Below, one piece after another: positions 3,214-52,470 of a DNA stretch of 64,000 bases. Made by a program: the position numbers and the translations under genes. How positions within the stretch are numbered: position 1 is the first letter of the stretch; every line of letters begins with the position of its first letter. The stretch lies in contig JBGQGB010000002.1 of assembly GCA_041497195.1 (NCBI GenBank), positions 172,140 to 236,139 on the forward strand, given 5' to 3'. Source of the DNA: Candidatus Doudnabacteria bacterium (GTDB lineage Bacteria > Patescibacteriota > Doudnabacteria > UBA920 > 2-01-FULL-46-14). The notes beneath the pieces are model-generated. The model was not told the DNA's origin, ran no database searches, and saw only the letters and a program-made list of their open reading frames with translations.

Positions 3214-4284
3214 ATGGCAGAAAACGAAACCCCAAAATTAGATCAGCAGCCCGCTCCGGAGCCGGCAGAAATGGAAATTACGGTAATGCCGCACTTTGAC
3301 AAGCAAGACAACTTGCCCAGCATTGATTCGCGTACTGAGCAAAAGCCAAAAGCACCCGGCACAGTTGGCCACGGCAAGAAAATAGTTTTACGTTTTTTGG
3401 CGGTAGTTTTGGTGGCAGCATTCTTGGCCGGCGGTTATTTTGTTTTCAAAAAATATGGCGCCAGCTTCAAGAAAGCGGCGCCGCATATCAGTATCCCCAA
3501 TATCGTCGTCCCCCCGTCTGTTCCCACTGACACCAGCCTCGACAGTGACCACGACGGTTTGACTGATGTGGAAGAGCGCAAACTCGGAACTGACCCCCTG
3601 AATCCGGATACGGACAAGGATGGGCTCTCCGACGGAGACGAAGTGCACATTTACCATTCAGATCCGCTCTTGAGCGATTCGGACGGGGACGGTTTTCCGG
3701 ATGGCCAAGAAGTCGCCAATGGCTATAGCCCGATAGTCAATTCAAAGGAACCAGCGAGCGGAGACGAGCTGCAGACGTGGAGCGATCGAATCGCAGCTTA
3801 TGGGTTGCATGAGCCGACTGTGACGACCCTGAAACTTAAATCCAAAGCTTCCCACCAGGTCAAAGCTACGTATCACAACACCTCTTACGGCTATAGCATC
3901 GACGTGCCCGGAGCGTTGGCTTATCGCGAAGCAGATGAGCAAAGGACAGTGGGGTTGTACATCAATGGCAGCAGCACGGTAGACGCTGATCCAAGCACTG
4001 ACCCGATTGCCGCCACAATTGCGGTCAAAGTGAAAACTCAAACCCTCAAGGATTGGGTGGCGTCGCAATTTAGCAAAGATAGCTATGCGGCCCTCCAAAA
4101 TCTGACGGTAAACGGCAACAAAAGCATCCAGCTGACCGGGGTGAAATCTGACGTATGCGACCAGGAAAAAACATTTTTTTCCAAGAACAGCACGGTCGTC
4201 ATCTTGACCCTGACATGCACCGGCTCCCCGGACATGACTTCGCTCTATGACGGAGTGGTCAGTAGTTTCAAATTCAGTCCCTGA
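3214..4284 (+). CDS. membrane-anchored protein with Asp-rich calcium-binding (thrombospondin type-3-like DxDxDG) repeats
   Basis: It has a single TM ([19 protein letters not shown]). The repeats are [24 protein letters not shown] and [12 protein letters not shown]. Confidence 0.5.
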
Positions 4285-4357
4285 AATATTCATATTTGAA
4301 GCCGGCAAAAGTATTCGTTAAATTTTTGGCAACACGCGGAGATAGGGATCAAACAAA

Positions 4358-5497
4358 GTGACTGAGATTCAAATTCATTCAGACAATGAGGTCAGGCTTC
4401 GTGAAAATTTAGAAGGCTTGCACGACGTCGACAGCGAGAGGCTAAAGCGGTATTTGGCGATGCCTGATTTGTCCCGCAAGCCAGGCAGTCCGATCGCGGA
4501 AATAGTTCAAAGGGTCCTCGCCTCCGAGACATTCAAAGGTTTTGACGTGATTCAGGTGCCGGAAATCGTGCCTGTTGATATTAGTTTTGATTTGTTCGAT
4601 TTTCCCTCCGACCATCCGGCCCGTTCCAAATCCGATACCTACTATGTGGATGACCAGCATATTTTGCGGACCCACACCACAGTCATGTGGTACTACTATC
4701 TCAAGGATCCTGGGGTGAAAAGGCGCATGGCAACGGGCGAGAGCGTGGGATGTTTTTCTTTCGGCAAGGTGTTCCGAAAAGACGAGCTCGACCGCAGCCA
4801 TATGAACGTCTTCCATCAGATCGATGCCTGGTACCTGACGCCAAAGAGCAAGAAAGTTCTGGGGGTCGAAGATTTGCAAAACGCCTTGGTCGGCTTCGCC
4901 CAGGCTGTGTTTGGCAAAGACGTCAAATATCGATTCAATCCCGATACTTTTCCCTACACCGATCCGTCGCTCGAAATGGAAGTGGACAAAAACGGGAGCT
5001 GGCTCGAGGTTTGCGGCGCCGGGGTGGTGAAGGGGAGTGTCTTGGATAAACTGGGCGTGGACTCTTCGAAATGGAACGGCTGGGCGTTCGGGCCAGGCAT
5101 TGAACGATTCGCCATGATCAGCATGGATTTGCCCGATATTCGCCTACTGTGGTCCGAAGACCCGCGCGTCTTGAGTCAGCTGAAGCTCGGGCAGAAATTT
5201 GCGGAGGTGAGCAAGTATCCCCCGATCACGCGCGACATCTCCTTTGTCGTGGACAAATCATTTGTGCCGAACAATTATTTTGACCTTATTCGCGACATTG
5301 GCGGCAATCTCGTCGAACAAGTCGCGCTTTTGGACAAATACACTGATGAAAAAAAGTTCGGCCCAGACAAGACGAGCTACACTTACCGGGTCATTTACCG
5401 CAGTCCCGAACGCACCCTCAAAACCGATGAAGTCGAGCCCCTGCAGAGCAAGCTTTATGAGCAAACGAAGCTTTTATTTGGCGCTGATTTGAGGTAA
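4358..5497 (+). CDS. pheS: phenylalanyl-tRNA synthetase, monomeric mitochondrial-type (PheS catalytic core fused to C-terminal FDX-ACB anticodon-binding domain)
   Basis: GTG start. Class II motif 2 (FRKDELDRSHMNVFHQID) and motif 3 (GWAFGPGIERFAMI) are present, with FPYTDPSLEMEV typical of PheS. An extra C-terminal ~100 aa (SKYPPITRDISFVVDKSF...YRVIYRSPERTLKTDEV) resembles the FDX-ACB domain of FARS2/PheT. Confidence 0.8.
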   Translation: MTEIQIHSDNEVRLRENLEGLHDVDSERLKRYLAMPDLSRKPGSPIAEIVQRVLASETFKGFDVIQVPEIVPVDISFDLFDFPSDHPARSKSDTYYVDDQHILRTHTTVMWYYYLKDPGVKRRMATGESVGCFSFGKVFRKDELDRSHMNVFHQIDAWYLTPKSKKVLGVEDLQNALVGFAQAVFGKDVKYRFNPDTFPYTDPSLEMEVDKNGSWLEVCGAGVVKGSVLDKLGVDSSKWNGWAFGPGIERFAMISMDLPDIRLLWSEDPRVLSQLKLGQKFAEVSKYPPITRDISFVVDKSFVPNNYFDLIRDIGGNLVEQVALLDKYTDEKKFGPDKTSYTYRVIYRSPERTLKTDEVEPLQSKLYEQTKLLFGADLR

Positions 5498-5502
5498 AAT
5501 AA

Positions 5503-7440
<1,938 letters not shown>

Positions 7441-7509: not shown

Positions 7510-8448
7510 ATGAATTTGAAAGAATTGTTTCAGGCAATTCAATTGGGTTATCAAAAAGCTGTGGGTGAAAATTTTACTAATCACCCGCTCGCTATTTTAA
7601 TGCGTGACGCCCCTAACGAAATAATTAAACCATTGTTAGATGACAATGATTTATTTATCAAAGGGTCGGCCGGGATGGGACAATGGACAGAATTGCCGTG
7701 GATAGGAGTTTTTAACAAGAATGAGACCGATGGCGCTAGGGATGGTGTGTACGTTGTTTATCTCTTTTCGGGAGATATGGAACGATTATATCTTTGTCTA
7801 GGACAGGGCATAACAGACCCCATGGAGCAATTCGGAAGAAAAGGAGGTTTGGCAAAGTTAAAAGCCCGAGCAGAACTTGCACGAGCGAATTATAATCTTC
7901 CTGGGTTTGCCACTGATAATAAATTACAACTTTCTGAATCTCAACGTGGGTCAGACTATGAACGAGCTGTAATTTTTTATAAGGAGTATGATCTAAAAAA
8001 CCTTCCCGAATACGAAATTTTAACAAAAGACCTCCTTGAATTGATAAAGCTATATAATGATTATTTGCTTACAGAGAACGTCGCAACAGTTGAAACAGAC
8101 TTTAGTGAGGTTGTGGGTGAGGTTGAGGAGGGAAAGAGATTATTGCGACAACACTACGTAAGGGAACGGAATCGCAGTATAATAAAAGCAGCAAAAGAAA
8201 AAGCTCTCAAAGAGAAGGGAGGCTTGAATTGCGAAGTTTGCGGTTTTTCCTTTCTGATACATTATGGGGAAAGGGGTCGAAATTTTATAGAAGGGCACCA
8301 TAAAAAACCTGTATCTGAATTACAGGCCGGGGAGAAAACAAGTGTTAATGACATTGTTTTAATTTGCTCAAATTGCCATAGCATTATTCATGCTAAGTGG
8401 CCATATTTACCTTTTGAGGAGCTGCAGAAAATTTACCGCTCATCTTAA
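7510..8448 (+). CDS. MrcB-like N-terminal domain (DUF3578) fused to HNH endonuclease; candidate modification-dependent (type IV) restriction enzyme
   Basis: FIKGSAGMGQWTELPWIGVF...GVYVVYLFSGDMERLYLCLGQG matches the DUF3578 signature. A C-terminal HNH is present (CEVCGF...EGHHKKP...CSNCH). The gene is markedly AT-rich relative to its flanks. Confidence 0.75.
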   Translation: MNLKELFQAIQLGYQKAVGENFTNHPLAILMRDAPNEIIKPLLDDNDLFIKGSAGMGQWTELPWIGVFNKNETDGARDGVYVVYLFSGDMERLYLCLGQGITDPMEQFGRKGGLAKLKARAELARANYNLPGFATDNKLQLSESQRGSDYERAVIFYKEYDLKNLPEYEILTKDLLELIKLYNDYLLTENVATVETDFSEVVGEVEEGKRLLRQHYVRERNRSIIKAAKEKALKEKGGLNCEVCGFSFLIHYGERGRNFIEGHHKKPVSELQAGEKTSVNDIVLICSNCHSIIHAKWPYLPFEELQKIYRSS

Positions 8449-11821: not shown

Positions 11822-12004
11822 ATGGGGAAAATCATCCAATTTTTTAGAGAAGTCTGGGTGGAACTGGGCAAGGTCGTGTGGCCCTCGCGCCAGGAAGCGC
11901 TCAAGATCACTGGCATTGTCGTGTTCTTCTCCCTGTTGGTGGCGGCTTTCCTGGGTGCTGTAGATTTAGGCTTAGCCCGGCTGCTGGGCTTGTTAATCAA
12001 ATAG
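11822..12004 (+). CDS. secE: preprotein translocase subunit SecE
   Basis: 60 aa with a single C-terminal TM, placed immediately upstream of nusG. Confidence 0.8.
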   Translation: MGKIIQFFREVWVELGKVVWPSRQEALKITGIVVFFSLLVAAFLGAVDLGLARLLGLLIK

Positions 12005-12007
12005 TTT

Positions 12008-12553
12008 ATGCCGCGACAGATATCGACAGGGGAAAAACATTGGTACGTGCTGCATACCTATTCTGGCTATGAGGATTCTGTGGTGCACAATCTGCAGCAG
12101 AGGATCGAGTCCATGGGCATGGAAGACAAAATTTTTGACGTCATCGTGCCGAAAGAGAAAAAGATCAAAATTCGCGACGGCAAACGAGTGACGGTCGAGG
12201 AAAAAATTTTTCCAGGCTATGTGCTGGTCAATATGATTGTGACGGATGACTCGTGGTACGTGGTCCGCAACACCCCGAACGTCACCGGCTTCGTGGGATC
12301 AGGGACAATACCGTCTCCCATCTCGGACGAAGAGGTCAAAGTCATCCAGAAACGGATGGGCATGGAAGAGCCGAAATACAAGATTGAGTTTGCGGTCAGC
12401 GACCTGGTGCGCATTACGGACGGCCCGTTTAAAAACTATGAAGGAAAAGTCTCGGAGATAGACGAGGCCAAAGGCAAAGTCAAAGTTTTGGTTTCCATCT
12501 TTGGCCGCGAGACGCCGGTAGAGCTGGATTTTTTGCAAGCGAAAAAGTTATAA
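12008..12553 (+). CDS. nusG: transcription termination/antitermination factor NusG
   Basis: An NGN domain (WYVLHTYSGYE...) and a KOW motif (FKNYEGKVSEIDEAKGKVKVLVSIFGRETPVEL). Confidence 0.9.
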   Translation: MPRQISTGEKHWYVLHTYSGYEDSVVHNLQQRIESMGMEDKIFDVIVPKEKKIKIRDGKRVTVEEKIFPGYVLVNMIVTDDSWYVVRNTPNVTGFVGSGTIPSPISDEEVKVIQKRMGMEEPKYKIEFAVSDLVRITDGPFKNYEGKVSEIDEAKGKVKVLVSIFGRETPVELDFLQAKKL

Positions 12554-12585
12554 GTAATAATTAGAACTAAGAGGAACGAAGTCGA

Positions 12586-13011
12586 ATGGCAAAAAAAGTA
12601 AAATTGGTAGTGAAATTGCAGATTGCCGCCGGCAAAGCCACGCCCGCGCCGCCCATCGGGACTGCCCTGGGGCCGCATGGGATCAATCTGATGGATTTTT
12701 GCAACCAATTCAACGATAAGACTCGCGACAAGGGCGACTCGGTTATCCCGATTATCATGACGATTTTCGAGGATCGCAGTTTTAGTTTTGTGCTCAAAAC
12801 CCCGCCAGTATCCGATCTCATCCGCAAAGCTTTGAAGATCGAGAAAGGCTCAGGCGACCCGCTCAAAAACAAGGTCGGCAAACTCAGCAAAGCCCAGCTG
12901 CGGCAAATTGCCGAGGCCAAATCCGCTGATCTCAATGCCAACAGTATTGAGGCAGCGGAGCGTATCATTGCCGGCACTGCCCGAAGCATGGGTGTCGAGA
13001 TTGAGAGTTAA
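12586..13011 (+). CDS. rplK: 50S ribosomal protein L11
   Basis: [39 protein letters not shown]. Confidence 0.95.
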
Positions 13012-13032
13012 ATTTTTTCGAAGAATCCTAAA

Positions 13033-13707
13033 ATGTCCAAACGCTTTCGAGAAATTCAAAAATTGGTAGACGCAAACACCGTTTACACCCCGGAAGAGGC
13101 TGTGAAGCTTGCCAAACAAACCTCGACTGTCAAATTTGACGCGTCAGTCGAAGTCCACATCAAGCTCAACGTTGACCCCAAACAGACCAATCAGAAAGTT
13201 CGCACCCAGATAGCCCTACCGCACGGCATTGGCAAAAGCATCAAGGTCGCGGCTTTTGTCACCTCCTCGCGAGAAAAAGAAGCCAAAGCCGCGGGTGCTG
13301 ACATTATTGGCGGCGAAGAATTGGTCAAGGAAATCAAGGAAAAAGAGAAAACTGATTTTGACATCGCTGTGGCCGAGCCGGGTATTATGAAAAGTTTGGC
13401 AACAATTGCCAAGATTTTGGGGCAGCGCGGATTGATGCCCAGTCCCAAAAACGGGACCGTGGGTGAGGACGTCGGCAAACTGATACGTGAGCTCAAATCC
13501 GGGCGTGTGGACATCAAGACTGACGACACTGGAGTTGTCCACCAGACCATTGGCAAGGTTTCTTTTGACGACCAGAAGCTTTTGGAAAATTTTATAGCAC
13601 TCAAAGACGCCATTGCCAAAGCCAAGCCCGCCTCGGTCAAAAAGGATTTTGTGGCCTCGATATCGATGAGCTCTTCAATGGGGCCGGGTATCAAAGTGCA
13701 GAGGTAA
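13033..13707 (+). CDS. rplA: 50S ribosomal protein L1
   Basis: Typical L1 sequence, 224 aa. Confidence 0.95.
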   Translation: MSKRFREIQKLVDANTVYTPEEAVKLAKQTSTVKFDASVEVHIKLNVDPKQTNQKVRTQIALPHGIGKSIKVAAFVTSSREKEAKAAGADIIGGEELVKEIKEKEKTDFDIAVAEPGIMKSLATIAKILGQRGLMPSPKNGTVGEDVGKLIRELKSGRVDIKTDDTGVVHQTIGKVSFDDQKLLENFIALKDAIAKAKPASVKKDFVASISMSSSMGPGIKVQR

Positions 13708-13731
13708 AAAACCAACAAGGAGGAGAAGCTC

Positions 13732-13929
13732 GTGAAATCTAAACCCAAGCAGGCAAAGACTGCAAAGAGTTTTAAACGTAAGCGCAGACCTCGGGTTTCC
13801 AGGGCGGAGCGCGTTTTTCGAAAATACTTGAAACGCCGATCCAAAGCGTTTGGAAGAATCGCTGACGCGATGGACCGGGACCCAAGACCACGTCTGGCCG
13901 GAGCAGAAAGTGTTAATTCAACGTCTTAA
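13732..13929 (+). CDS. small highly basic protein (65 aa), hypothetical
   Basis: GTG start with SD AAGGAGG. Very K/R rich (KRKRRPRVSRAERVFRKYLKRRSK). It sits before the terminator that closes the L11-L1 operon. Confidence 0.4.
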   Translation: MKSKPKQAKTAKSFKRKRRPRVSRAERVFRKYLKRRSKAFGRIADAMDRDPRPRLAGAESVNSTS

Positions 13930-13943
13930 ATCAGCTTCGCTTC

Positions 13944-13979
13944 GCGACCAGGAGAGGAGGGCAGACAATGTCCTCCTTC
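13944..13979 (+). terminator. intrinsic terminator
   Basis: Stem aggagg/cctcct followed by a T9 run. Confidence 0.5.
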
Positions 13980-14041
13980 TTTTTTTTTGTTTGCTTTTAC
14001 CTATTTTTTGAGCTAAAATAATTGGGATTAACCGCTCAAAA

Positions 14042-14620
14042 ATGATTCTCTCTGACGACGACATAAAAGCCCAGCTAGGTAAAGGGGAAATCAAGATAGT
14101 CCCAATGCCGGATCTGGGTGTGGCCTTGGGAACAATGTCCATAGACTTGAGACTCGGGCACCAATTTATGGTCTACCAGCGGACAGAGCAGGCTTTTATT
14201 GACGTGAAAAAACCCGAGACTCTGGAAAATTTGACCAGTCTGGTGGAAAAGAAAAGCCACGAGTCTTTTACGATTCACCCTGGGGAGTTTGTTTTGGCCG
14301 CTACTCTCGAATCAGTGGAGCTGCCGAACAATCTGGCCGGTCGCCTGGAAGGGCGCTCCAGCCTCGGCAGATTGGGAATTGTCATCCATTCCACAGCCGG
14401 AAAAGTTGACCCGGGCTGGAGAGGACACCTGGTTCTGGAAATCAGCAATATCGGAGTCGTGCCGGTCAAACTTTACCCGGAGATGCGCATCTGTCAGCTG
14501 GTATTTGAGGAACTCAAATCCGAAACCAGCCAATCTTACACGCGAAGAAAAAGCTCCAAATACAAATCGCAGGACGCCCCAGCGGGGAGCAAAATAACCT
14601 CCGAAGTCGATGAAAGTTAA
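14042..14620 (+). CDS. dcd: dCTP deaminase
   Basis: MILSDDDIKAQL...IDLRLG...GWRGHLVLEISN matches the dCTP deaminase family. Confidence 0.85.
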   Translation: MILSDDDIKAQLGKGEIKIVPMPDLGVALGTMSIDLRLGHQFMVYQRTEQAFIDVKKPETLENLTSLVEKKSHESFTIHPGEFVLAATLESVELPNNLAGRLEGRSSLGRLGIVIHSTAGKVDPGWRGHLVLEISNIGVVPVKLYPEMRICQLVFEELKSETSQSYTRRKSSKYKSQDAPAGSKITSEVDES

Positions 14621-15044
14621 AATCCAAAAACTCGACCCGACAGTGGAGTTGCCGCAATACCGCACCGCGGAAGCCGCTGCTTTTGATTTGGCCGCCAGCG
14701 AGGACGTCTCGATCGCGCCAAGAGAAATCAAGTTCATCAAGACCGGGCTCGTAATCGAGGCGCCGCACGGGCATTTTTTGCTCATCGCCTCCCGCTCCAG
14801 CACGCCGCGCAAAAAAGGCCTCTTGATCCCACAAAGTATCGGCATAATCGACCGGGATTATTCCGGCCCTGCGGATGAAGTATTGCTCCAATTCTACAAT
14901 TTCACTAACGAGACAGTCACTGTGACGAAAGGCGAGAGGCTGGCGCAGGGACTGTTCCTCAAAGTCGACCATGTGGAGTGGGAAGAAGTCAGCTCGATAC
15001 GAGCGCAATCCCGGGGCGGTTTCGGCAGCACCGGCAGCAAATAA
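14610..15044 (+). CDS. dut: dUTP diphosphatase
   Basis: dUTPase motifs AAAFDL, GLLIPQSIGIIDRDY and a C-terminal GGFGSTG. Confidence 0.85.
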   Translation: MKVKIQKLDPTVELPQYRTAEAAAFDLAASEDVSIAPREIKFIKTGLVIEAPHGHFLLIASRSSTPRKKGLLIPQSIGIIDRDYSGPADEVLLQFYNFTNETVTVTKGERLAQGLFLKVDHVEWEEVSSIRAQSRGGFGSTGSK

Positions 15045-15056
15045 AACTTATCCAAA

Positions 15057-15737
15057 ATGAAGCGCGGCAAACTCATCGTCATTGACGGCACGGACGGCTC
15101 TGGCAAAGCGACCCAAACAGTGATTTTGGCCCGCCGGCTTCGCCAAGACGGCTATAGCGTCGTGGTCGAGGATTTCCCGCAGTACGGCAAAAAATCAGCC
15201 GGGCCGGTGGAGGACTACCTCAATGGCAGCTACGGACCGGCGCACGCGGTGGGACCGTATTTGCCCTCGATTTTTTACGCCGTGGACCGTTTCGCGGCCA
15301 GTGAGCGGATCCGCAAGAGCCTGGCGGGCGGCAAAATCGTCATTTGCAATCGCTACGTCACAGCCAACCTTGCGCACCAGGGCGGCAAGATCAGCAGTCC
15401 CCGCAAGCGCGAACGGTTTTTCCGCTGGGTCATCGACCTCGAATACCGCTTGTTCCGCCTACCGCGGCCCGATCTCAACCTCATCCTTCACATGCCTGCG
15501 GTAGTGGCGCAAAAACTCGTGGGTAAAAAAGCCACTCGCGTTTATCTGCGCGGCAAGAAACGAGACATTCACGAGAAGGATTTGGGTCATCTGCGCGCGG
15601 CCGAGCGCGTCTATCTTGAGATAGCCAAGCGCTTCGGCTATCCTGTAGTCGAGTGTTACGTCCGGGGCCGCATCCTCAGTCGCGCGGAGGTAGCGAGCCT
15701 CATAAGAAACGCTATCAAAAAACATTTACGCGTATGA
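15057..15737 (+). CDS. tmk: thymidylate kinase
   Basis: P-loop [15 protein letters not shown] and the DRF motif (AVDRFAAS). Confidence 0.85.
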
Positions 15738-22263: not shown

Positions 22264-23562
22264 CTATTGAACCTTAAAAATAAAAATTTCCCTTGAAACA
22301 AACTGATCCTTGCGGTCATAGATTATGCTTTTTCTCTGGGTCAGGCGCAAAAAATCGTACTTTTCAATCAAAACTTCCGGCAGCGGATCAACAATATCGT
22401 ATCCCAATTTGCTGAGCTTGTCAACGATTTCCAGGAAACGATACCCGGAAGTAGTGCGGTAGGCAGGCAAGGCAATCACGACTCTTTTGCCCGAACTGAG
22501 AATTTTGGCAAAAGCTTTGAAAGCGCCCAGGTACAAAGTTTGCAGATTTTTGAAATTTTGTTTTATTTCATTTTCGTTCGGCATTTGCGCATAGGCTGGC
22601 CCTAGCGTTCCTTCTGTGACGATGGCCTCAAATTTGAGTTTCGGCAGATTAGTTTGCAGCTCTTTGACATCGCTTAAGAACAATTCATAGCGCCCGGTCG
22701 GTAATTTGTAGCGGTTTTTAACCCACTGTAGATTTTTTTCTCCATCATCCACAGCTTTCTGGGAAATATCCGAGCCGATTCCCTTGTATCCCATGAGCAT
22801 GGCTTCCTGAAGTACTGTTCCCGACCCGACAAAGGGATCAAGTACAGCTCGTTTCAAGTCTCCGACCATTTCTACTGGCAGTTGCGCCAGATTGAGCATA
22901 ATTTGCGCCACTTTCGGCGGTAACATGCCAACCTGGTTATCGCGTGCGGGGCGTTGATAATCACGCCGGCCATAATCCTCGAAATCCTGCACAGACAGGG
23001 TCTTCGCCAGATAAATCCGTTCGGCTCCGACCAGGAAATCAATCTCCGCACCCTTGGTCAGCAAATGCTCGCCCGTGACAACGACCGAAGGCAGGGCAAT
23101 AGCTTCTTCCTGTGGCAAAACAGCGCGCACAGACCAGCCGGCTGTTGTGAGCAGATCTTTGATCCCAAGGCCCAGGCGTTTCGGCTCTCCGCGCAAAGGA
23201 AGCTCCCTAGCCATCGGGTAAATAGATACGCCGATCTGAATTTTTCCGGTAGCATTACCCAGAAATTTCTCCTTCAGAAGTGGTACATCGAAATAATCCT
23301 TGAAAACCCAGCTGGGCCCGTCCATTTTTTTTCTTCCCAGCGAATCCAAAACTTCCATTATCTTGATGGTTCCGCCCAGCCTTTTCTGAAGTTTTTCCAC
23401 CGGCAACACTTCTTCCGTTTCAATAACTAAAACCTCGCGATACAAATCAACGAGGCGAAAAGAAAGACCCATGTTTTCGAACACCCCAAACAATTCTGCC
23501 AAAGAAAGCGTGAACACCCGCCCTAAATTGAAAGCGTATTTGACTTTCATTGATTTAATCAA
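22264..23562 (-). CDS. THUMP-domain RNA (guanine-N2)-methyltransferase-like (RlmL/Trm14 family, UPF0020)
   Basis: RPARDNQVGMLPPKVAQIMLNLA substrate-binding region. SAM motif LDPFVGSGTVLQEA. The N-terminal half fits a THUMP-like domain. Confidence 0.7.
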   Translation of the reverse strand: MIKSMKVKYAFNLGRVFTLSLAELFGVFENMGLSFRLVDLYREVLVIETEEVLPVEKLQKRLGGTIKIMEVLDSLGRKKMDGPSWVFKDYFDVPLLKEKFLGNATGKIQIGVSIYPMARELPLRGEPKRLGLGIKDLLTTAGWSVRAVLPQEEAIALPSVVVTGEHLLTKGAEIDFLVGAERIYLAKTLSVQDFEDYGRRDYQRPARDNQVGMLPPKVAQIMLNLAQLPVEMVGDLKRAVLDPFVGSGTVLQEAMLMGYKGIGSDISQKAVDDGEKNLQWVKNRYKLPTGRYELFLSDVKELQTNLPKLKFEAIVTEGTLGPAYAQMPNENEIKQNFKNLQTLYLGAFKAFAKILSSGKRVVIALPAYRTTSGYRFLEIVDKLSKLGYDIVDPLPEVLIEKYDFLRLTQRKSIIYDRKDQFVSREIFIFKVQ

Positions 23563-30307: not shown

Positions 30308-31429
30308 ATGGCAGAGGAGCAGGACAGCAAAAATCCAAAACCTCACGGCATTCTGGACACCGTGAGCTATACGCGACAAAATGAGACTTTGCGTAACTTC
30401 AATCCGCAAAGTTTTGTTAGTACTTTTTTGGATGGGCTCAAGCTTCGGGAGAGACAAATACTCTCCAGCCGATACGGCCTCGATGACGGCCAGCCACAAA
30501 CATTGGAAGAAATCGGGAAAAGACTGGGTTTGACTCGCGAGCGGGTGAGACAAATCGAAAAAGAAACGACCAAAAAGCTGCAACAAAAAAATATACCCGT
30601 CAGCCTCGAACAGACTGTAGATCTGATATTCCAAATAATCGAGGACAGCGGCAACATAGCGATCGAGGAAAAAATTCTGGACACGCTCCTGGCAGCGAAC
30701 AAGACCGAGGTGGGGCGCAAGGCAATCTTATTTGTTCTAAATTTAGCGCCGCGCTTTAACCGTTTCAAAGAAACAAACAGCTACAGCGCCGGCTGGTCCG
30801 TGACCGGTTTTGATGTCAATCTACTGGAACAAATAATTTCAGCTGCGCAGGAAAGGCTGGAAACAGCGCAAAAACCTTTGCGCGGCGACATTCTGTTTGA
30901 CCAAATTCGAAAACAGATTAATTCCGCAGAAATCCAAAATCTCACCAATGAAGCTTTGGACAGCTACACAAGCATGTCAAAGCAGATTGACAAAAACGTC
31001 TTTCAAGAATGGGGCTTAGCGAAATGGACCGATATTCATCCGAAGGACGTCGGAGATAAGGTATATTTGGTGTTGTCTCACCACGGCAAACCCGAACATT
31101 ACTCAAAAATTACCGAACTCATAAACAAACAAAGTTTTGATAAACGCACGGCCCACAAAGAAACCGTGCACAACGAACTCATAAAAGACGACCGGTTCGT
31201 ACTGGTAGGAAGGGGGATTTACGCGCTCACGAAATGGGGATACAAAAAAGGCGTAGTGGCCGACATAATCAAGGAAACTTTACAAAAATCTCCGGAGCCG
31301 CTGACTAGAGACCAATTGATTGAGCAGGTTCTCAAACAGCGTCTTGTGAAAAGAAATACTATTATAGTCGGGCTTTCCAATCGCAAACTCTTTCGTAAAA
31401 CTTCGGACAACAAATACACAAATGTTTAG
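30308..31429 (+). CDS. DNA-binding protein: sigma-70 region-4-like HTH (N-terminal third) plus C-terminal HARE-HTH-like winged helix
   Basis: LSSRYGLDDGQPQTLEEIGKRLGLTRERVRQIEKETTKKL matches sigma70 region 4. The C-terminal DDRFVLVGRGIYALTKWGY matches the HARE-HTH terminal motif (compare RpoE delta DGRF...WGL..W). Confidence 0.55.
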   Translation: MAEEQDSKNPKPHGILDTVSYTRQNETLRNFNPQSFVSTFLDGLKLRERQILSSRYGLDDGQPQTLEEIGKRLGLTRERVRQIEKETTKKLQQKNIPVSLEQTVDLIFQIIEDSGNIAIEEKILDTLLAANKTEVGRKAILFVLNLAPRFNRFKETNSYSAGWSVTGFDVNLLEQIISAAQERLETAQKPLRGDILFDQIRKQINSAEIQNLTNEALDSYTSMSKQIDKNVFQEWGLAKWTDIHPKDVGDKVYLVLSHHGKPEHYSKITELINKQSFDKRTAHKETVHNELIKDDRFVLVGRGIYALTKWGYKKGVVADIIKETLQKSPEPLTRDQLIEQVLKQRLVKRNTIIVGLSNRKLFRKTSDNKYTNV

Positions 31430-32744
31430 TGACGTATTTCAGCTATTCAGCTTAATTTGGTTTTTAATGGTCAAAGGCGGGTGGGTCGTTTTGGCAGCCG
31501 GGCTCGTGTATATGTTTGGTTGGCTTTATATGGATCGGATCCAAATGGCTTGGTATCACAAACTCGAATGGGTATTTTTGAAAATCACGGTGCCCAAAGA
31601 AAACGATAAAAGTCCGCTGGCGTTCGAGCAGATTTTTGGCCACGTTCACGCTATGCACGCAACTTTTACCCCAGCCGAAAAATATTTGGAGGGTCAATTT
31701 CAAATCTGGTTCACTTGGGAAATCGTCAGCATCGGCGGTACTATCAGCAACTACGTCAAAATTCTGAAAAAATACCGAGATACTCTCGAGTCGGCCATTT
31801 ACTCACAATTTCCTCAGGCTGAAATCACCGAAACCGCTGACTACTTTGACAGTCTCCCAAAATACAACACGGACACATCCGAGTACGACATTTTCGCTTT
31901 TAATTTCAAATACAAACACCCCAATCCGTACCCGATCCGCAGCTATCTGGAATTCGAACACAGTAGTGCCGACACTTTTGTCGACCCGGTCGACGGCCTC
32001 TGGGAAGAGCTCACGAAAATCAGTCCCTATGAAATGGTCGTGTTTCAATATATTTTCCGGCCCATAGCGGACGATGACTGGAAAGAAACCGGGCGCAAAC
32101 TCGTGAGCAAGCTCAAAGGGGAGCGGGAGGCTTTGGAGGAAAAACCGAATTATTTAGCTCAGGCAGCTGGCTGGCTTATAAACCCCTTCATCGACGCTTT
32201 GATAATCAGGGCCAGCCCCGGGGAGCACCGACCAGCACCACGGAAGGAAGAGTTGCCCCCCAGCCTGATGTTGCATTTGTCTGAGGGAGAAAAAGAAATA
32301 ATCAGCGCGATTGAGCGCAAACTTGCCAAGCTGACTTACCAAACCAAACTTCACGTTCTGTATATAGCCCCCAGGGAAAAGTATAACCCCAGCCCGGTTT
32401 ATACGGCTATAATTGGCGCGATAAAAAGCGTTGGTTCAGCGGACACCAATTCGCTCAAGCCAGACACGCACAAATGGACCAAGGTCCACTACGGAGCATT
32501 TAAAGAGTGGGAAAAACCGATTACCACAACCAGGCTGAACTATCGCAAACGGCGCTTCATGAGCCGGATCAGGCGACGTTTTTATTTCCACGGACCAGCG
32601 CCGATGATTCTCAGTACCGAGGAAATCGCCACGATTTTGCACTTCCCCAGAACCGAGGTCACAGTCCCGCAGATTGAAAAAGTCGAGGTTATGAAAGTTC
32701 AGCCACCACCGGAGTTACCTGTTATTTATGATGAAACTATATGA
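31422..32744 (+). CDS. membrane protein (2 N-terminal TM helices + ~370-aa cytoplasmic domain), hypothetical; putative partner of downstream coupling ATPase
   Basis: N-terminal hydrophobic helices (LFSLIWFLMV, WVVLAAGLVYMFGWLY). An 8-nt overlap with the upstream gene and a 4-nt overlap with the downstream gene. Confidence 0.5.
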   Translation: MFSDVFQLFSLIWFLMVKGGWVVLAAGLVYMFGWLYMDRIQMAWYHKLEWVFLKITVPKENDKSPLAFEQIFGHVHAMHATFTPAEKYLEGQFQIWFTWEIVSIGGTISNYVKILKKYRDTLESAIYSQFPQAEITETADYFDSLPKYNTDTSEYDIFAFNFKYKHPNPYPIRSYLEFEHSSADTFVDPVDGLWEELTKISPYEMVVFQYIFRPIADDDWKETGRKLVSKLKGEREALEEKPNYLAQAAGWLINPFIDALIIRASPGEHRPAPRKEELPPSLMLHLSEGEKEIISAIERKLAKLTYQTKLHVLYIAPREKYNPSPVYTAIIGAIKSVGSADTNSLKPDTHKWTKVHYGAFKEWEKPITTTRLNYRKRRFMSRIRRRFYFHGPAPMILSTEEIATILHFPRTEVTVPQIEKVEVMKVQPPPELPVIYDETI

Positions 32745-34354
32745 ATAACAATCGAGAACACATCAATCTTTTCGCCCGAACCAATTTTCGTAACCGCGAG
32801 GTACCTTTTGGCATCAAGGAAGATGACCGGCGCCGGCACATGTACATCATCGGCAAGACAGGCATGGGAAAGACTACCATGATTGAAAACATGATAGTCC
32901 AGGATATCGCTGCCGGTCACGGCGTGGCCTTTGTCGACCCCCATGGCGAATCAGTCGAAAAGATTCTTCAGTATATCCCTTCCTCGCGCGTCAACGATGT
33001 CGTGTATTTCAATCCCGCGGATATCGACTATCCGATAGCCTTCAATCCGCTCGAGTCAGTCGATCCGAAATACAAACACTTGGTTGCGTCCGGACTGATG
33101 GGCGTATTCACTAAAATTTGGGAAAATGTCTGGAGTGCCCGGATGGAATACATTTTGAACAACACAATACTTGCTCTGCTGGACACTCCGGGCAACACTA
33201 TGCTCGGTATTGCGCGCATGCTGGTGGACAAAAAATTTCGCAAACGAATAACCGACAACACCCGGGATCCAGTGGTCAAATCCTTTTGGATAGATGAGTT
33301 CGCTAATTATAACGATCGGTTCCGCAACGAAGCCATTGCGCCTATCCAGAACAAAGTCGGACAATTTTTATCCTCCGCCATTATCAGAAACATTGTTGGC
33401 CAGACAAAAAGCACTGTTGATTTGCGGGATATCATGGACAACAGGAAGATTTTACTTCTGAATTTGGCCAAAGGCCGCATCGGCGAGGACAATTCGAAAC
33501 TTCTAGGAGCGATGTTTATCACCAAGCTGCAGCTGGCAGCGATGAGTAGGGTAGATGTTCCGGAAGAAGAGCGGGCAGATTTTTATTTGTACGTTGACGA
33601 ATTTCAAAACTTTGCGACGCAGTCGTTCGCGACTATCCTGTCAGAGGCTAGAAAATACCGACTGAATTTGATAATCGCCCACCAATACATTGAGCAGCTT
33701 GACGAGGAGGTCGCCGCTGCAGTATTTGGTAACGTCGGTACAATCATTTTATTCAGGATTGGGGCAACGGACGCTGAAGCCCTGGAGCCTGAATTTTTGC
33801 CGACTTTTGAACAGGATGACCTGGTCAACCTGAGCAAATATCACATTTATCTAAAACTGATGATAAACGGTGTCTCTTCGCAGCCATTTTCGGCTGTCAC
33901 TCTACAGCCGCTTGCAGAAAAAACGGGAAATCTAGATAAGGTCATCAAAGTTTCCCGCGAAAGATACAGCCGTCCGCGCGAACAAATCGAGGAAAAGATT
34001 ACGCGCTGGATGGGACAGGAATACCATAGCGAAGCGGCCCAGCAGGACCTCACGGAAGAAGAGGCAGAGGAGGAAAGGGGAGGAGTGATATTCAGTGGAG
34101 CTACCGCGGCGCCTGCAGCTACGAAGCCTGTTGTAGTAGAAAAACCAGATGCTCCTGCCCCGGCTAACCCCGTACTGAATTCTAAACCACAAGAAAATCC
34201 GGTTTGGCAGAAAGTTGCCAGCGACCAAGAGAAAAAGACCCAAGAGGCAATAAAAAAAGTCTCCAAGACGCTGCGTTTTGATTTTGCTAACAAGAAAAAT
34301 CAACTCCAACCGCCGCGCCCACCAGTTGAGAGTGACAAACCACGACAAACTTGA
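32741..34354 (+). CDS. VirD4/TrwB/TraD-like type IV coupling-protein ATPase (soluble; lacks own TM anchor) with acidic/low-complexity C-terminal tail
   Basis: RRRHMYIIGKTGMGKTT...VAFVDPHGE...VYFNPADIDYPIAFNPLE parallels the TrwB RHLLVNGATGTGKS...VDPNGD...ILNPYD motifs. Walker B FYLYVDEFQNF is present. The C-terminal EEEAEEERG... tail is acidic. Confidence 0.65.
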   Translation: MNNNREHINLFARTNFRNREVPFGIKEDDRRRHMYIIGKTGMGKTTMIENMIVQDIAAGHGVAFVDPHGESVEKILQYIPSSRVNDVVYFNPADIDYPIAFNPLESVDPKYKHLVASGLMGVFTKIWENVWSARMEYILNNTILALLDTPGNTMLGIARMLVDKKFRKRITDNTRDPVVKSFWIDEFANYNDRFRNEAIAPIQNKVGQFLSSAIIRNIVGQTKSTVDLRDIMDNRKILLLNLAKGRIGEDNSKLLGAMFITKLQLAAMSRVDVPEEERADFYLYVDEFQNFATQSFATILSEARKYRLNLIIAHQYIEQLDEEVAAAVFGNVGTIILFRIGATDAEALEPEFLPTFEQDDLVNLSKYHIYLKLMINGVSSQPFSAVTLQPLAEKTGNLDKVIKVSRERYSRPREQIEEKITRWMGQEYHSEAAQQDLTEEEAEEERGGVIFSGATAAPAATKPVVVEKPDAPAPANPVLNSKPQENPVWQKVASDQEKKTQEAIKKVSKTLRFDFANKKNQLQPPRPPVESDKPRQT

Positions 34355-43086: not shown

Positions 43087-43160
43087 TTGGCTCCGGGACT
43101 TGGATTCGAACCAAGATTACCAGATTCAGAGTCTGGCGTCCTACCATTAGACGATCCCGG
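43087..43160 (-). tRNA. tRNA-Gln (anticodon CUG)
   Basis: Manually folded, 74 nt. The acceptor stem is UCCGGGA/UCCCGGA, with U1:A72 and G73. The D-arm has G10. The anticodon loop is CU-CUG-AA. The T-arm is CTTGG-TTCGAAT-CCAAG. CCA is encoded. Confidence 0.8.
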
Positions 43161-43438
43161 AATGCTTTGAAATTATAACGGAAAGTCGCCTGATTTGACA
43201 AAGCGCTGACCTGCCGATACCTTATAAGTAAGAGACATTAAAAATTAATGAAACAAAAATGTTCTTTGCACTCGCACTGGTCCTTTTCGGGGTTGCATGG
43301 ATGCTGCGGAGCCTCGGTGTCTATAACGACCAAGTTTTTGGCCTAGTAGGCTCGTTTTTGCTCATCTTTGCAGGAGTGCTCAAACTCTTGCAGTTGAATA
43401 GCAAACACTCTTCCAAAGACGAACACGGCTTTTAGCTC

Positions 43439-52466: not shown

Positions 52467-52470
52467 ATAT

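What the first reader, a model, noticed from the sequence alone, without database searches (positions are those of the whole stretch)
4358..5497. Monomeric, mitochondrial-type phenylalanyl-tRNA synthetase in a bacterium
The 379-aa product has the class-II PheS catalytic core (motifs 2 and 3, FPYTDPSLEME). It lacks the long N-terminal coiled-coil arm of bacterial PheS.

Instead it carries a C-terminal ~100-aa extension (SKYPPITRDISFVVDKSF...YRVIYRSPERTLKTDEV). This matches the FDX-ACB anticodon-binding domain normally found at the end of bacterial PheT and of the single-chain mitochondrial PheRS (FARS2).

Bacterial PheRS is canonically an (alpha-beta)2 heterotetramer. A FARS2-like single-chain enzyme would mean the organism has dispensed with PheT, or uses it differently. 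No pheT lies in this window.
Basis: partly seen in the sequence, partly recalled or inferred. Interest (0 to 1): 0.65.

Follow-up and report, generated by a model that had tools for sequence, protein, structure and literature searches.

The report
Single-chain PheRS replacing pheS-pheT in CPR
This ultra-small (CPR/Patescibacteria) bacterium encodes a one-piece phenylalanyl-tRNA synthetase built like the mitochondrial enzyme, in the chromosomal slot where related bacteria keep the usual two-subunit genes, so a large bacterial group probably breaks the rule that bacterial PheRS is always a heterotetramer.

Summary
ORF 4358-5497 (+, GTG, 379 aa) is a PheS class-II core (aa 45-274) joined directly to an FDX-ACB anticodon-binding domain (aa 285-379). 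It has a 44-aa N-terminal stub instead of the coiled-coil arm. An AF2 model (pLDDT 86.8) superposes full-length on human mitochondrial PheRS (TMq 0.72).

The Phe/ATP pocket is kept and is invariant across homologues from Parcubacteria/Paceibacteria-type CPR MAGs (thousands of protein clusters, hundreds of GTDB species genomes). NCBI labels the named ones 'hypothetical protein'.

The protein misses the NCBIfam cutoffs for pheS_mito (234 vs 258), SrmL (240 vs 300) and pheS (158 vs 237). In a rough tree it forms a bacterial clade next to SrmL, apart from the mitochondrial/viral clade.

Key new evidence is synteny. Paceibacteria genome PMX.50 reads pheS-pheT-gyrB-secE-nusG-rplK-dcd-tmk. The window reads single-chain gene-gyrB-...-secE-nusG-rplK-rplA-dcd-tmk.

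No pheT or second pheS occurs in the window or within 10 kb of the gene in 80 related genomes. About a fifth of relatives carry a ~140-aa PheT-B2 'mini-beta' gene just upstream (fused in one case); it is absent here.

Not shown: absence of pheST from the whole genome, monomeric state, enzymatic activity.

The parts
4358..5497 (+). Single-chain phenylalanyl-tRNA synthetase gene (379 aa, GTG start, stop included)
   Evidence: ORF. Pfam PF01409 plus PF03147. Best PDB matches are human mtPheRS. An identical protein (P0001) lies on 240-kb CPR contigs.
4358..4489 (+). N-terminal 44 aa: short vestige of the PheS helical arm (two short helices), in place of the ~100-aa coiled coil
   Evidence: The AF2 model has helices at aa 9-18 and 24-34. 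The E. coli PheS core starts aligning at its residue ~108 with window aa ~45. No PF02912 is detected.
4490..5179 (+). Class II PheS catalytic core (aa 45-274). Pocket residues: H106-T107-T108, motif-2 R140, F152-H153-Q154-I-D156, F198-P-Y200-T201, G241-W-A243-F-G...E249-R250
   Evidence: PF01409 E 9.5e-55. The residues align with the RTQTS, GRVYRND, FHQMEG, FPFTEPS and GFAFGMGMER motifs of E. coli PheS and with human mtPheRS. Most are invariant in 30 family members. Reference roles of ttF258/F260/V261/A314 are taken from PMC3275996.
5150..5209 (+). Fusion junction (aa 265-284). The PheS C-terminus equivalent ends at K276; PheT-B8-like sequence starts at about aa 272-285
   Evidence: E. coli PheS ends ...DLRFLKQFK, aligned to window ...DPRVLSQLK. 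TIGR00472 pheT_bact positions 692-798 align to window aa 272-379. E. coli PheT 696-794 hits the C-termini of homologues.
5210..5494 (+). FDX-ACB (PheT B8-type) anticodon-binding domain, aa 285-379
   Evidence: PF03147 E 4.6e-22. Modelled as a beta-alpha-beta-beta-alpha ferredoxin-like unit that superposes on human mtPheRS. The R292-D-I-S-F296 motif is invariant in the family and shared with human NDISF.
4285..4357 (.). 73-bp intergenic gap where ~20% of relatives carry a ~140-aa PheT-B2 'mini-beta' (tRNA_bind) gene; empty here
   Evidence: L006 and L007 have tRNA_bind then PheRS with 5-20 nt gaps. 17 of 80 loci with upstream data have it. There is no remnant here or anywhere in the window.
3214..4284 (+). 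Upstream neighbour: TSP3-repeat secreted/membrane protein, partly homologous to the upstream neighbour in relatives
   Evidence: Weak Pfam TSP3_bac hit. 46% identity over 98 aa to the L007 upstream gene, E 8e-24.
5509..7440 (+). gyrB, the conserved downstream neighbour (synteny anchor)
   Evidence: Pfam HATPase_c, DNA_gyraseB, Toprim, DNA_gyraseB_C. gyrB is directly downstream in 48 and nearby in 18 of 84 loci. In PMX.50, gyrB directly follows pheS-pheT.
11822..15737 (+). secE-nusG-rplK-rplA-dcd-dut-like-tmk block (synteny anchor shared with PMX.50)
   Evidence: Called genes of L001, mapped with offset 5643, plus ORFs 13033-13707 and 15057-15737. PMX.50_00319-00323 are secE, nusG, rplK, dcd, tmk.

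Best explanation
The gene encodes a working single-chain phenylalanyl-tRNA synthetase. It is most likely the only PheRS of this Parcubacteria/Paceibacteria-type CPR bacterium.

The chain equals PheS without its coiled-coil arm, joined head-to-tail to the last domain (B8/FDX-ACB) of PheT. The core would activate Phe with ATP in a conserved PheRS pocket. The C-terminal domain would read the GAA anticodon of tRNA-Phe. By analogy with human mitochondrial PheRS, the two domains would swing from a closed to an open arrangement to dock the tRNA.

There is no B3/B4 editing module, so Tyr-tRNA-Phe would not be proofread in cis.

The gene sits where related Paceibacteria carry pheS-pheT (upstream of gyrB-secE-nusG-rplK), so it has taken over the canonical operon's place.

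In a minority of relatives a stand-alone PheT-B2 tRNA-binding mini-protein, encoded just upstream and once fused, probably helps tRNA binding in trans. This genome seems to do without it.

Shown: architecture, fold, conserved pocket, distribution, synteny. Inferred: catalytic activity, monomeric state, sole-enzyme status, role of the mini-protein.
For: Architecture and fold:
- PF01409 plus PF03147, no PF02912.
- AF2 pLDDT 86.8.
- Full-length superposition on human mtPheRS in the closed state, TMq 0.72, against 0.57 for the open tRNA complex 3tup.

Pocket:
- RTHTT, GKVFRKD, FHQID, FPYTDPS and GWAFGPGIER align with the PheRS motifs. This includes the positions of ttF258/F260/V261 and EcA294.
- Most of these residues are invariant in 30 homologues.
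- A true SrmL (P0262, 402 bits) changes several of them.

Housekeeping character:
- The top 120 protein clusters are 69-77% identical.
- The gene lies on a 240-kb contig among core genes.

Positional replacement:
- PMX.50 reads pheS-pheT-gyrB-secE-nusG-rplK-dcd-tmk.
- The window reads PheRS-gyrB-...-secE-nusG-rplK-rplA-dcd-tmk.
- gyrB is adjacent in most of 84 loci.

No competitor seen:
- No PheT or second PheS in the window.
- None within 10 kb in 80 genomes.
- Two searches with B2-domain bait returned only stand-alone mini-proteins among the top 120 hits, never a full-length PheT.

tRNA link:
- A PheT-B2 mini-protein is adjacent in 17 of 80 loci and fused in P0091. Its best NCBIfam match is pheT_bact positions 36-151.
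- A sibling cluster representative (P0121, 61% identical) passes the pheS_mito equivalog cutoff.
Against: - Only 64 kb, probably under a tenth of the genome, was searched for pheS/pheT. Whole-genome absence is untested.
- Canonical pheS-pheT does exist in other Parcubacteria lineages (PMX_810_sub, PMX.50), so the class is mixed.
- Single-chain PheS-like paralogues of unknown function (SrmL, and an Oligoflexia 'hypothetical protein') are the nearest bacterial relatives in the tree.
- The protein misses every NCBIfam equivalog cutoff.
- Three pocket positions carry conservative changes relative to bacterial PheS: S->T108, E->D156, F->Y200.
- The synteny argument rests on one published gene table, which gives gene order but not strands or coordinates.
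- No biochemical data exist.
Confidence: 0.72

Rival explanations
1. It is an extra paralogue. The genome also has canonical pheS-pheT elsewhere, and this single-chain protein does an auxiliary job, such as a stress-resistant or inhibitor-resistant PheRS, or supply of Phe-tRNA for a non-ribosomal use.
For: Whole-genome absence of pheST was not tested; only the 64-kb window and 10-kb flanks in relatives were searched. Canonical pheST occurs in some Parcubacteria. Single-chain PheS-like proteins also occur in non-CPR settings: an Oligoflexia MAG, the SrmL family and large phage-like contigs.
Against: The gene sits exactly in the pheS-pheT slot of a conserved housekeeping block. CPR genomes are tiny, so a duplicate aaRS system is unlikely (general knowledge of CPR genome reduction). 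The family is very conserved (59-77% identity) across many lineages. No canonical gene was seen in any of 84 loci. The stored parts of the PMX.50 and PMX_810_sub gene tables list a canonical pair and no second PF01409/PF03147 gene.
Confidence: 0.13
2. It is an SrmL-type 'PheS-related mystery ligase'. It would share the fold but use a different amino acid or acceptor, and would not be a PheRS.
For: NF051887 SrmL is nominally the top NCBIfam hit (240.5 bits against 234.2 for pheS_mito). The SrmL clade is sister to the CPR/Oligoflexia group in the NJ tree (82% bootstrap).
Against: The score is well below the SrmL cutoff of 300. Identity to a true SrmL (P0262) is only ~30%. SrmL replaces pocket residues (IHHMD for FHQ(I/M)(D/E), HPYT for FP(F/Y)T, GWALG for GWAFG), while the window protein keeps the PheRS versions. 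A sibling representative passes the PheRS equivalog TIGR00469. The PheT-B2 partner and fusion link the family to PheRS and tRNA.
Confidence: 0.07
3. It is a recent horizontal acquisition from a eukaryote (mitochondrial FARS2), a virus, or an assembly or binning contaminant, rather than a native bacterial gene.
For: The best solved-structure matches are human mitochondrial PheRS. Related single-chain genes occur in a giant virus (P0266) and on large phage-like contigs, so the single-gene design is mobile.
Against: The gene is embedded in a 240-kb contig of bacterial housekeeping genes, recovered independently in JGI, NCBI and Logan assemblies. The CPR clade has 100% bootstrap support and lies outside the mitochondrial/viral clade. 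Synteny with gyrB is conserved across most of 84 genomes. No CPR-type copy was found in IMG/VR.
Confidence: 0.03

Closest known systems
Mitochondrial single-chain PheRS (human FARS2, yeast MSF1; NCBIfam TIGR00469 pheS_mito; 'PheRS-M' in AARS Online; PDB 3CMQ/3TUP)
   Same: Same two-module chain: PheS catalytic core plus C-terminal FDX-ACB/B8, with no coiled coil, no B1-B7 and no editing domain. Full-length structural match (TMq 0.72, 33% identity). Same pocket motifs, including Thr at the ttV261 position as in human T235. Same junction just after the PheS C-terminus.
   Different: Scores 234.2, below the 258.35 equivalog cutoff. Falls in a separate bacterial clade. Lacks the human insertion between the two matched stretches (human ~179-204). 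Has its own ~10-aa insertion at aa ~115-130, shared with the Oligoflexia and code-25 CPR variants. Carries Y200, T108 and D156 where human has F, S and E. Is chromosomal in a bacterium, in the pheS-pheT slot. Some relatives have a B2 mini-partner.
Canonical bacterial (alpha-beta)2 PheRS: PheS (TIGR00468) and PheT (TIGR00472)
   Same: The core is homologous to PheS (33% identity to E. coli over 233 aa). The C-terminal domain is homologous to PheT 692-798. Same genomic position as pheS-pheT in Paceibacteria PMX.50.
   Different: No N-terminal coiled coil. No B1, B2, B3/4 (editing), B5 or B6/7 (CLM) domains. Scores 158 against a cutoff of 237 for pheS, and 73.5 against 402.65 for pheT. The review PMC3275996 states that neither alpha nor beta alone is active and that the heterotetramer is conserved in all known prokaryotic species.
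SrmL, 'PheS-related mystery ligase' (NCBIfam NF051887)
   Same: Same single-chain layout and similar length. Nearest named bacterial family, and sister clade in the rough tree.
   Different: The window protein scores 240.5 against a cutoff of 300. About 30% identity to a true member. SrmL has altered amino-acid pocket residues. No literature on SrmL was found.
Single-chain PheRS of giant viruses and large phage-like elements (Yasminevirus P0266; P0277/P0135 and P0158 clusters)
   Same: Single-chain PheS-like enzymes: P0277 and P0158 carry PF01409 plus PF03147 in 348-354 aa; the 426-aa Yasminevirus P0266 is source-named a phenylalanyl tRNA-synthetase, though BLAST with the window's C-terminal domain did not detect an FDX-ACB in it.
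   Different: P0135 (the P0277 cluster representative) passes TIGR00469, as do all nine other ~350-aa representatives tested; P0158 and P0266 were not scanned. These variants group with the mitochondrial clade, not the CPR clade. They are 34-35% identical to the window protein. They lie on contigs of mostly ORFan genes.
Stand-alone PheT-N-terminal/B2-like tRNA-binding proteins (YtpR NF045760, TapR NF045867, Trbp111/CsaA type). These are relevant to the partner seen in relatives, not to the window.
   Same: The ~140-aa PF01588 mini-protein next to the enzyme in relatives is the same kind of OB-fold tRNA-binding module. Mukai et al. 2017 noted B2 domains fused to CPR TyrRS/LysRS, and B2-less CPR PheRS-beta.
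   Different: Its best match is PheT itself (TIGR00472 positions 36-151, ~110 bits). It falls below the YtpR (87 vs 100) and TapR (43 vs 120) cutoffs. It is operonic with, and once fused to, a single-chain PheRS.

Membership tests
Mitochondrial-type single-chain PheRS (TIGR00469 / PheRS-M) | Class II PheS catalytic core in the chain | tested here: met
   PF01409 at aa 45-274, E 9.5e-55.
Mitochondrial-type single-chain PheRS (TIGR00469 / PheRS-M) | FDX-ACB (PheT B8-type) anticodon-binding domain fused C-terminally in the same chain | tested here: met
   PF03147 at aa 285-379, E 4.6e-22. The AF2 model superposes full-length on 3cmq/5mgh, TMq 0.72.
Mitochondrial-type single-chain PheRS (TIGR00469 / PheRS-M) | No coiled-coil arm and no B1-B7 domains, hence no editing module | tested here: met
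   No PF02912, PF03483, PF03484, PF17759 or PF01588 hit at E<=0.1. Only 44 aa precede the core.
Mitochondrial-type single-chain PheRS (TIGR00469 / PheRS-M) | Score at or above the curated equivalog cutoff (258.35 bits) | tested here: not met
   234.2 bits. The sibling representative P0121 (61% identical) scores 264.3 and passes.
Mitochondrial-type single-chain PheRS (TIGR00469 / PheRS-M) | Placement inside the mitochondrial clade | tested here: not met
   In the NJ tree the CPR clade (100% bootstrap) groups with the Oligoflexia, code-25 CPR and SrmL proteins (82%), apart from the mitochondrial/viral clade. The method is rough, with only two canonical outgroups.
Mitochondrial-type single-chain PheRS (TIGR00469 / PheRS-M) | Conserved Phe/ATP pocket (aromatic pair, EcA294-equivalent Ala, motif 2 and 3 arginines) | tested here: met
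   F198, Y200, T201, A243, R140 and R250 align with ttF258, F260, V261 (hmT235), EcA294 and the motif arginines. Most are invariant in the family. Conservative changes are S->T108, E->D156 and F->Y200.
Mitochondrial-type single-chain PheRS (TIGR00469 / PheRS-M) | Active as a monomer; charges tRNA-Phe | not testable with these tools
   Needs biochemistry (SEC-MALS, aminoacylation assay). Inferred only by homology to human mtPheRS.
Mitochondrial-type single-chain PheRS (TIGR00469 / PheRS-M) | It is the compartment's or organism's only PheRS (no beta subunit) | tested here: inconclusive
   No pheT or second pheS in the window or within 10 kb in 80 genomes. The gene lies in the pheS-pheT slot. The whole genome could not be scanned.
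Canonical bacterial PheS (TIGR00468) | Equivalog cutoff of 237.45 bits, N-terminal coiled coil (PF02912), and an adjacent or co-encoded full-length PheT | tested here: not met
   158.1 bits. No PF02912. No PheT in the window or flanks.
SrmL, PheS-related mystery ligase (NF051887) | Equivalog cutoff of 300 bits | tested here: not met
   240.5 bits. A true member, P0262, scores 402.1.
SrmL, PheS-related mystery ligase (NF051887) | SrmL-type pocket signature (as seen in P0262: IHHMD, HPYTNEG, GWALGMGLDR) | tested here: not met
   The window has FHQID, FPYTDPS and GWAFGPGIER, the PheRS versions. This is based on one true SrmL sequence.
Two-piece variant: single-chain PheRS plus PheT-B2 mini-protein (seen in relatives) | ~140-aa PF01588 gene immediately upstream of, or fused to, the enzyme gene | tested here: not met
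   Present in L006, L007 and 15 of the GTDB loci, and fused in P0091. Absent from the 73-bp gap and from the whole window. No family member was found on contigs of the window's lengths.

The most novel reading that the evidence does not exclude
Single-chain PheRS is an old bacterial invention, not a eukaryotic one. The CPR clade and its bacterial relatives (the Oligoflexia protein, the code-25 CPR variant, SrmL) would represent the lineage from which the mitochondrial enzyme (FARS2/MSF1) and the viral copies descend. In part of the CPR it would work as a previously undescribed two-piece PheRS: the single chain plus a split-off PheT-B2 'mini-beta' that aids tRNA binding in trans.
Probability: 0.2. 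Interest if true: 0.8.

Novelty: new variant of a known kind. Interest (0 to 1): 0.62.

Why it matters
- **It breaks a stated rule.** Bacterial PheRS is described as an obligate (alpha-beta)2 heterotetramer in which neither subunit works alone. The mitochondrial enzyme is called the only monomeric class-II-core synthetase (PMC3275996). A free-standing single-chain PheRS used by hundreds of CPR species would overturn that.
- **It would be one of the smallest bacterial synthetases.** It would also mean these bacteria translate Phe codons without Tyr proofreading.
- **It affects annotation and quality scoring.** Named homologues in NCBI are 'hypothetical protein', while JGI calls the enzyme 'PheRS alpha chain' and the B2 remnant 'beta chain'. 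pheS and pheT are in widely used bacterial marker sets (my recollection of the GTDB bac120 list, not checked here), so these lineages may be scored as less complete than they are.
- **It bears on the origin of mitochondrial PheRS.** It provides bacterial relatives for testing where that enzyme came from.
- **It may be useful for engineering.** It offers a compact one-gene PheRS scaffold for genetic-code work.

Tried and rejected
- **Literature.** Searches for SrmL, Patescibacteria+PheRS, CPR+pheT, 'PheRS beta'+CPR and 'PheRS-M' found no description of a bacterial single-chain PheRS. Tsurumaki 2022 has nothing on PheRS.
- **Seeds for canonical CPR PheS/PheT.** I looked among the 150 representatives. 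The FDX-less candidates (P0245, P0253, P0206, P0225) turned out to be eukaryotic mitochondrial PheRS gene models truncated by introns. A direct sequence comparison with canonical Paceibacteria PheS/PheT was therefore not possible.
- **Complete-genome gene tables.** The Minisyncoccus archaeiphilus table is truncated in storage and contains neither gene type. The PMX_810_sub and PMX.50 tables gave canonical pairs instead.
- **Viral contigs.** IMG/VR scans for the CPR-type and for the P0277-type gene both found nothing. PHROGs on the L089/L090 neighbours hit only a phage-type helicase and PcfJ-like families, so 'huge phage' remains a guess.
- **RNA leaders.** An Rfam scan of the window found only tRNA-Gln: no T-box or pheST-type leader.
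- **Recent in-frame deletion of a local pheS-pheT.** I considered this as the origin. It fits the junction and the synteny. However, no canonical PheS cluster representative scores above ~145 bits against this protein (the first canonical hit is rank 148). The event is therefore either old or was a replacement by transfer; this is unresolved.
- **Not run.** I did not use the second structure job on the B2 fusion (P0091), because the tool reports no interface metrics.
Full report
**1. Observation**

- Pfam finds the PheS class II core (PF01409, aa 45-274, E 9.5e-55) and a C-terminal FDX-ACB domain (PF03147, aa 285-379, E 4.6e-22). It finds no N-terminal PheS arm.
- The best solved-structure relatives by sequence are human mitochondrial PheRS entries (E ~1e-58). 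Bacterial PheS chains follow, and PheT chains match only the last ~100 residues.
- An AlphaFold2 model built on 30 homologues has mean pLDDT 86.8 and pTM 0.78.
- Foldseek against the PDB puts human mtPheRS first, over ~390 aligned columns (E 1e-31, TMq 0.72, 33% identity). The fit to the closed form (3cmq) is better than to the open tRNA complex 3tup (TMq 0.57).
- tblastn with E. coli PheT finds nothing in the 64-kb window, and E. coli PheS hits only this ORF.

**2. Host and distribution**

The identical protein lies on ~240-kb contigs from JGI and Logan assemblies and in NCBI assembly GCA_041493695.1. The surrounding genes are bacterial housekeeping genes: gyrB, secE-nusG-rplK-rplA, secA/secDF, prfA-like, ftsEX, pyrG, priA, def/fmt, murB/C, gltX, and an H+-PPase.

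Homologues are abundant.
- The 120 best protein clusters are 69-77% identical and 367-520 aa (nearly all 374-410), and all carry PF01409 plus PF03147.
- The named ones come from Candidatus Yanofsky-, Lipton- and Doudnabacteria, Paceibacterota or 'Patescibacteria group' MAGs.
- NCBI calls the named ones 'hypothetical protein'. JGI calls them 'PheRS alpha chain'.
The best 80 loci (59-72% identity) also include Giovannoni-, Zambryski-, Nomura- and Niyogibacteria, Parcubacteria group and Minisyncoccia.

**3. Which family is it?**

NCBIfam gives three near-misses:

| Family | Score (bits) | Cutoff (bits) |
|---|---|---|
| SrmL 'PheS-related mystery ligase' | 240.5 | 300 |
| pheS_mito | 234.2 | 258.35 |
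| pheS | 158.1 | 237.45 |

An exhaustive HMMER search of 1.84 billion cluster representatives returned mostly single-chain proteins. Of the 111 full-length representatives, 96 have the C-terminal domain.

- The sibling representative P0121 (61% identical) passes pheS_mito.
- So do the ~350-aa variants: four of the first batch (P0134, P0135, P0139, plus the 435-aa P0137 and 420-aa P0140) and nine of the second batch of ten; the tenth, P0262, is a true SrmL at 402 bits.

An alignment separates the readings.
- The window protein keeps RTHT(T), the motif-2 arginine, F-H-Q, F-P-Y-T and G-W-A-F-G...E-R.
- These are the positions of ttPhe258/Phe260/Val261, E. coli Ala294 and the motif-3 arginine. Their roles are described in PMC3275996.
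- SrmL instead has IHHMD, HPYT and GWALG.
- The three deviations from bacterial PheS are conservative (S->T108, E->D156, F->Y200). Tyr at the F260 position is normal in eukaryotic cytosolic PheRS.
- Most of these residues are invariant in the family.

I therefore read it as a PheRS, not an SrmL.

**4. Where it sits in the tree**

I built a rough neighbour-joining tree (55 sequences, 348 columns, 100 bootstraps, rooted on two canonical PheS).
- The CPR family forms a 100% clade.
- It joins P0127/P0126 (54%), an Oligoflexia protein (74%) and the SrmL clade (82%).
- This group is separate from a second group holding the long eukaryote-type proteins, a giant-virus protein and the ~350-aa variants.

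So the enzyme is mitochondrial-type in design but is not a recent import from eukaryotes. The root and the deep order are not reliable with this method and sampling.

**5. The decisive context**

Published gene tables show that canonical PheRS exists in some Parcubacteria.
- PMX_810_sub has adjacent pheT (B3/4, CLM, B5, FDX-ACB; no B2) and pheS (with the N-terminal domain).
- PMX.50, a Paceibacteria genome of family 32-520/UBA5633, has the order pheS (00316) - pheT (00317) - gyrB - secE - nusG - rplK - dcd - tmk.
- The window has single-chain PheRS (4358-5497) - gyrB (5509-7440) - an HNH gene and small ORFs - secE - nusG - rplK - rplA - dcd - dut-like - tmk (11822-15737).

The single gene therefore occupies the positional slot of the pheS-pheT pair. 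Among 84 loci, gyrB is directly downstream in 48 and nearby in 18. None of the 80 GTDB loci has a full-length pheT or a second pheS within 10 kb.

The junction fits a head-to-tail join.
- E. coli PheS ends ...DLRFLKQFK, opposite window ...DPRVLSQLK (aa 276).
- The PheT profile aligns from its position 692 at window aa 272.

One deletion from the end of pheS to the start of B8 would give this chain. However, no canonical PheS representative scores above ~145 bits against it. The event is therefore either ancient or was a replacement by transfer. I could not obtain canonical Paceibacteria sequences to decide.

**6. An unexpected partner in relatives**

One homologue (P0091, 520 aa) carries an N-terminal tRNA_bind domain. 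I used that domain as bait.
- It returned ~600 stand-alone 122-181-aa PF01588 proteins from the same lineages. JGI calls them 'PheRS beta chain'. No full-length PheT appeared among the top 120.
- Their best NCBIfam match is bacterial PheT positions 36-151, the B2 domain (~110 bits). That is ahead of YtpR and TapR, both below cutoff.
- In L006 and L007 this gene lies 5-20 nt upstream of the enzyme gene.
- It is adjacent in 17 of the 80 loci with upstream data, scattered over the enzyme tree.

The window lacks it.
- The upstream gap is 73 bp, with no remnant.
- tblastn over the whole window is negative.
- A second search, seeded with the closest relative's copy, found no member on contigs of the window's lengths.

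Mukai et al. 2017 had noted that many CPR PheRS-beta lack B2, and that B2 is fused to some CPR TyrRS and LysRS. I infer an optional trans-acting tRNA-binding helper that this genome has lost or moved.

**7. Mechanism**

*Shown:* the domain set, the fold, the conserved pocket, the invariant RDISF motif of the anticodon-binding domain shared with human NDISF, and the absence of any editing domain.

*Inferred from human mtPheRS* (PMC3275996; PDB 3cmq/3tup):
- Phe-AMP formation in the core.
- Anticodon reading by the FDX-ACB domain.
- A closed-to-open domain swing for tRNA docking.
- No cis-editing of Tyr-tRNA-Phe.
- Action as a monomer.

**8. What remains open**

Whole-genome absence of pheS/pheT, oligomeric state and activity were not testable here. 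I put 0.72 on 'functional and sole PheRS in the pheST slot'. The rivals are an extra paralogue (0.13), an SrmL-like ligase (0.07), and recent foreign acquisition or contamination (0.03).

**9. Novelty**

I found no paper in the searchable library that describes a bacterial housekeeping single-chain PheRS. The structural review states that the heterotetramer is conserved in all known prokaryotic species, and that the mitochondrial enzyme is the only monomeric class-II-core synthetase.

The kind (single-chain PheRS) is known. The bacterial clade, its replacement of pheS-pheT in place, and the split B2 partner make it a new variant of that kind.

Noticed in passing
L006:5540-5995, L007:5561-5980 (relatives); absent at window 4285-4357: A family of ~626 protein clusters of stand-alone ~140-aa PheT-B2 (PF01588) 'mini-beta' proteins. 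The gene lies directly upstream of the single-chain PheRS gene in ~20% of related genomes and is fused to it in P0091 (520 aa). JGI annotates it 'PheRS beta chain'; NCBI annotates it 'hypothetical protein'.
   Followed up: yes
L091:8001-9371 (Logan SRR2107213; protein P0127): A divergent 456-aa single-chain PheRS (38-41% identical) next to an F-type ATP synthase operon, on a 32%-GC contig. It has 13 in-frame TGA codons, two of them aligned to invariant Gly residues. This indicates genetic code 25, so it probably comes from a Gracilibacteria/Absconditabacteria-type CPR bacterium. The stored protein was translated with TGA=Trp.
   Followed up: partly
L089:8001-9047 (340,874-bp ENA contig) and L090:8001-9065 (160,460-bp Logan contig): ~350-aa single-chain PheRS genes (the representative of the L089 protein's cluster, P0135, passes the pheS_mito cutoff). 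They sit on very large contigs of mostly ORFan genes, with PhageMetallopep, PcfJ, a phage-type SNF2 helicase, eIF-1a and dCMP deaminase. They look like huge phages or other large mobile elements, but PHROGs support is thin and no IMG/VR relatives were found.
   Followed up: partly
P0123 (Oligoflexia MAG, MBX7144632.1) and P0262 (true SrmL): Single-chain PheS-like proteins also occur outside CPR. NCBIfam's SrmL 'mystery ligase' has altered amino-acid pocket residues (IHHMD, HPYT, GWALG). No publication on it was found.
   Followed up: partly
window 7510-8448 (+): A gene with MrcB_N and HNH nuclease domains, followed by several small Pfam-less ORFs (~8.6-11.7 kb). They are inserted between gyrB and secE, and interrupt a block that is contiguous in PMX.50.
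   Followed up: no
window 30308-34354 (+): Three consecutive genes: a sigma-70 region-4/HARE-HTH protein, a DUF8128 protein and a TrwB/TraG/VirD4-like coupling ATPase (DUF87, T4SS-DNA_transf). Possibly a DNA-transfer or uptake module.
   Followed up: no
window 51432-53292 (-): Adjacent deoxyhypusine-synthase-like (PF01916) and arginase/agmatinase-family genes. This is a polyamine-type pair in a genome with otherwise minimal metabolism.
   Followed up: no
window 35522-37498 (-) and 22264-23562 (-): A membrane H+-pyrophosphatase gene and an N6/N4 DNA methyltransferase gene. The only RNA gene in the 64 kb is tRNA-Gln(CTG) at 43088-43161.
   Followed up: no
L026 (DASPNG010000107.1, 4.5-kb contig labelled 'Candidatus Binatia'): A CPR-type single-chain PheRS plus mini-beta pair on a short contig binned into a Binatia MAG. 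This is probably a binning error. Many 'uncultured Candidatus Saccharibacteria' labels on the binchicken MAGs also look like placeholder names for Parcubacteria-type genomes.
   Followed up: no
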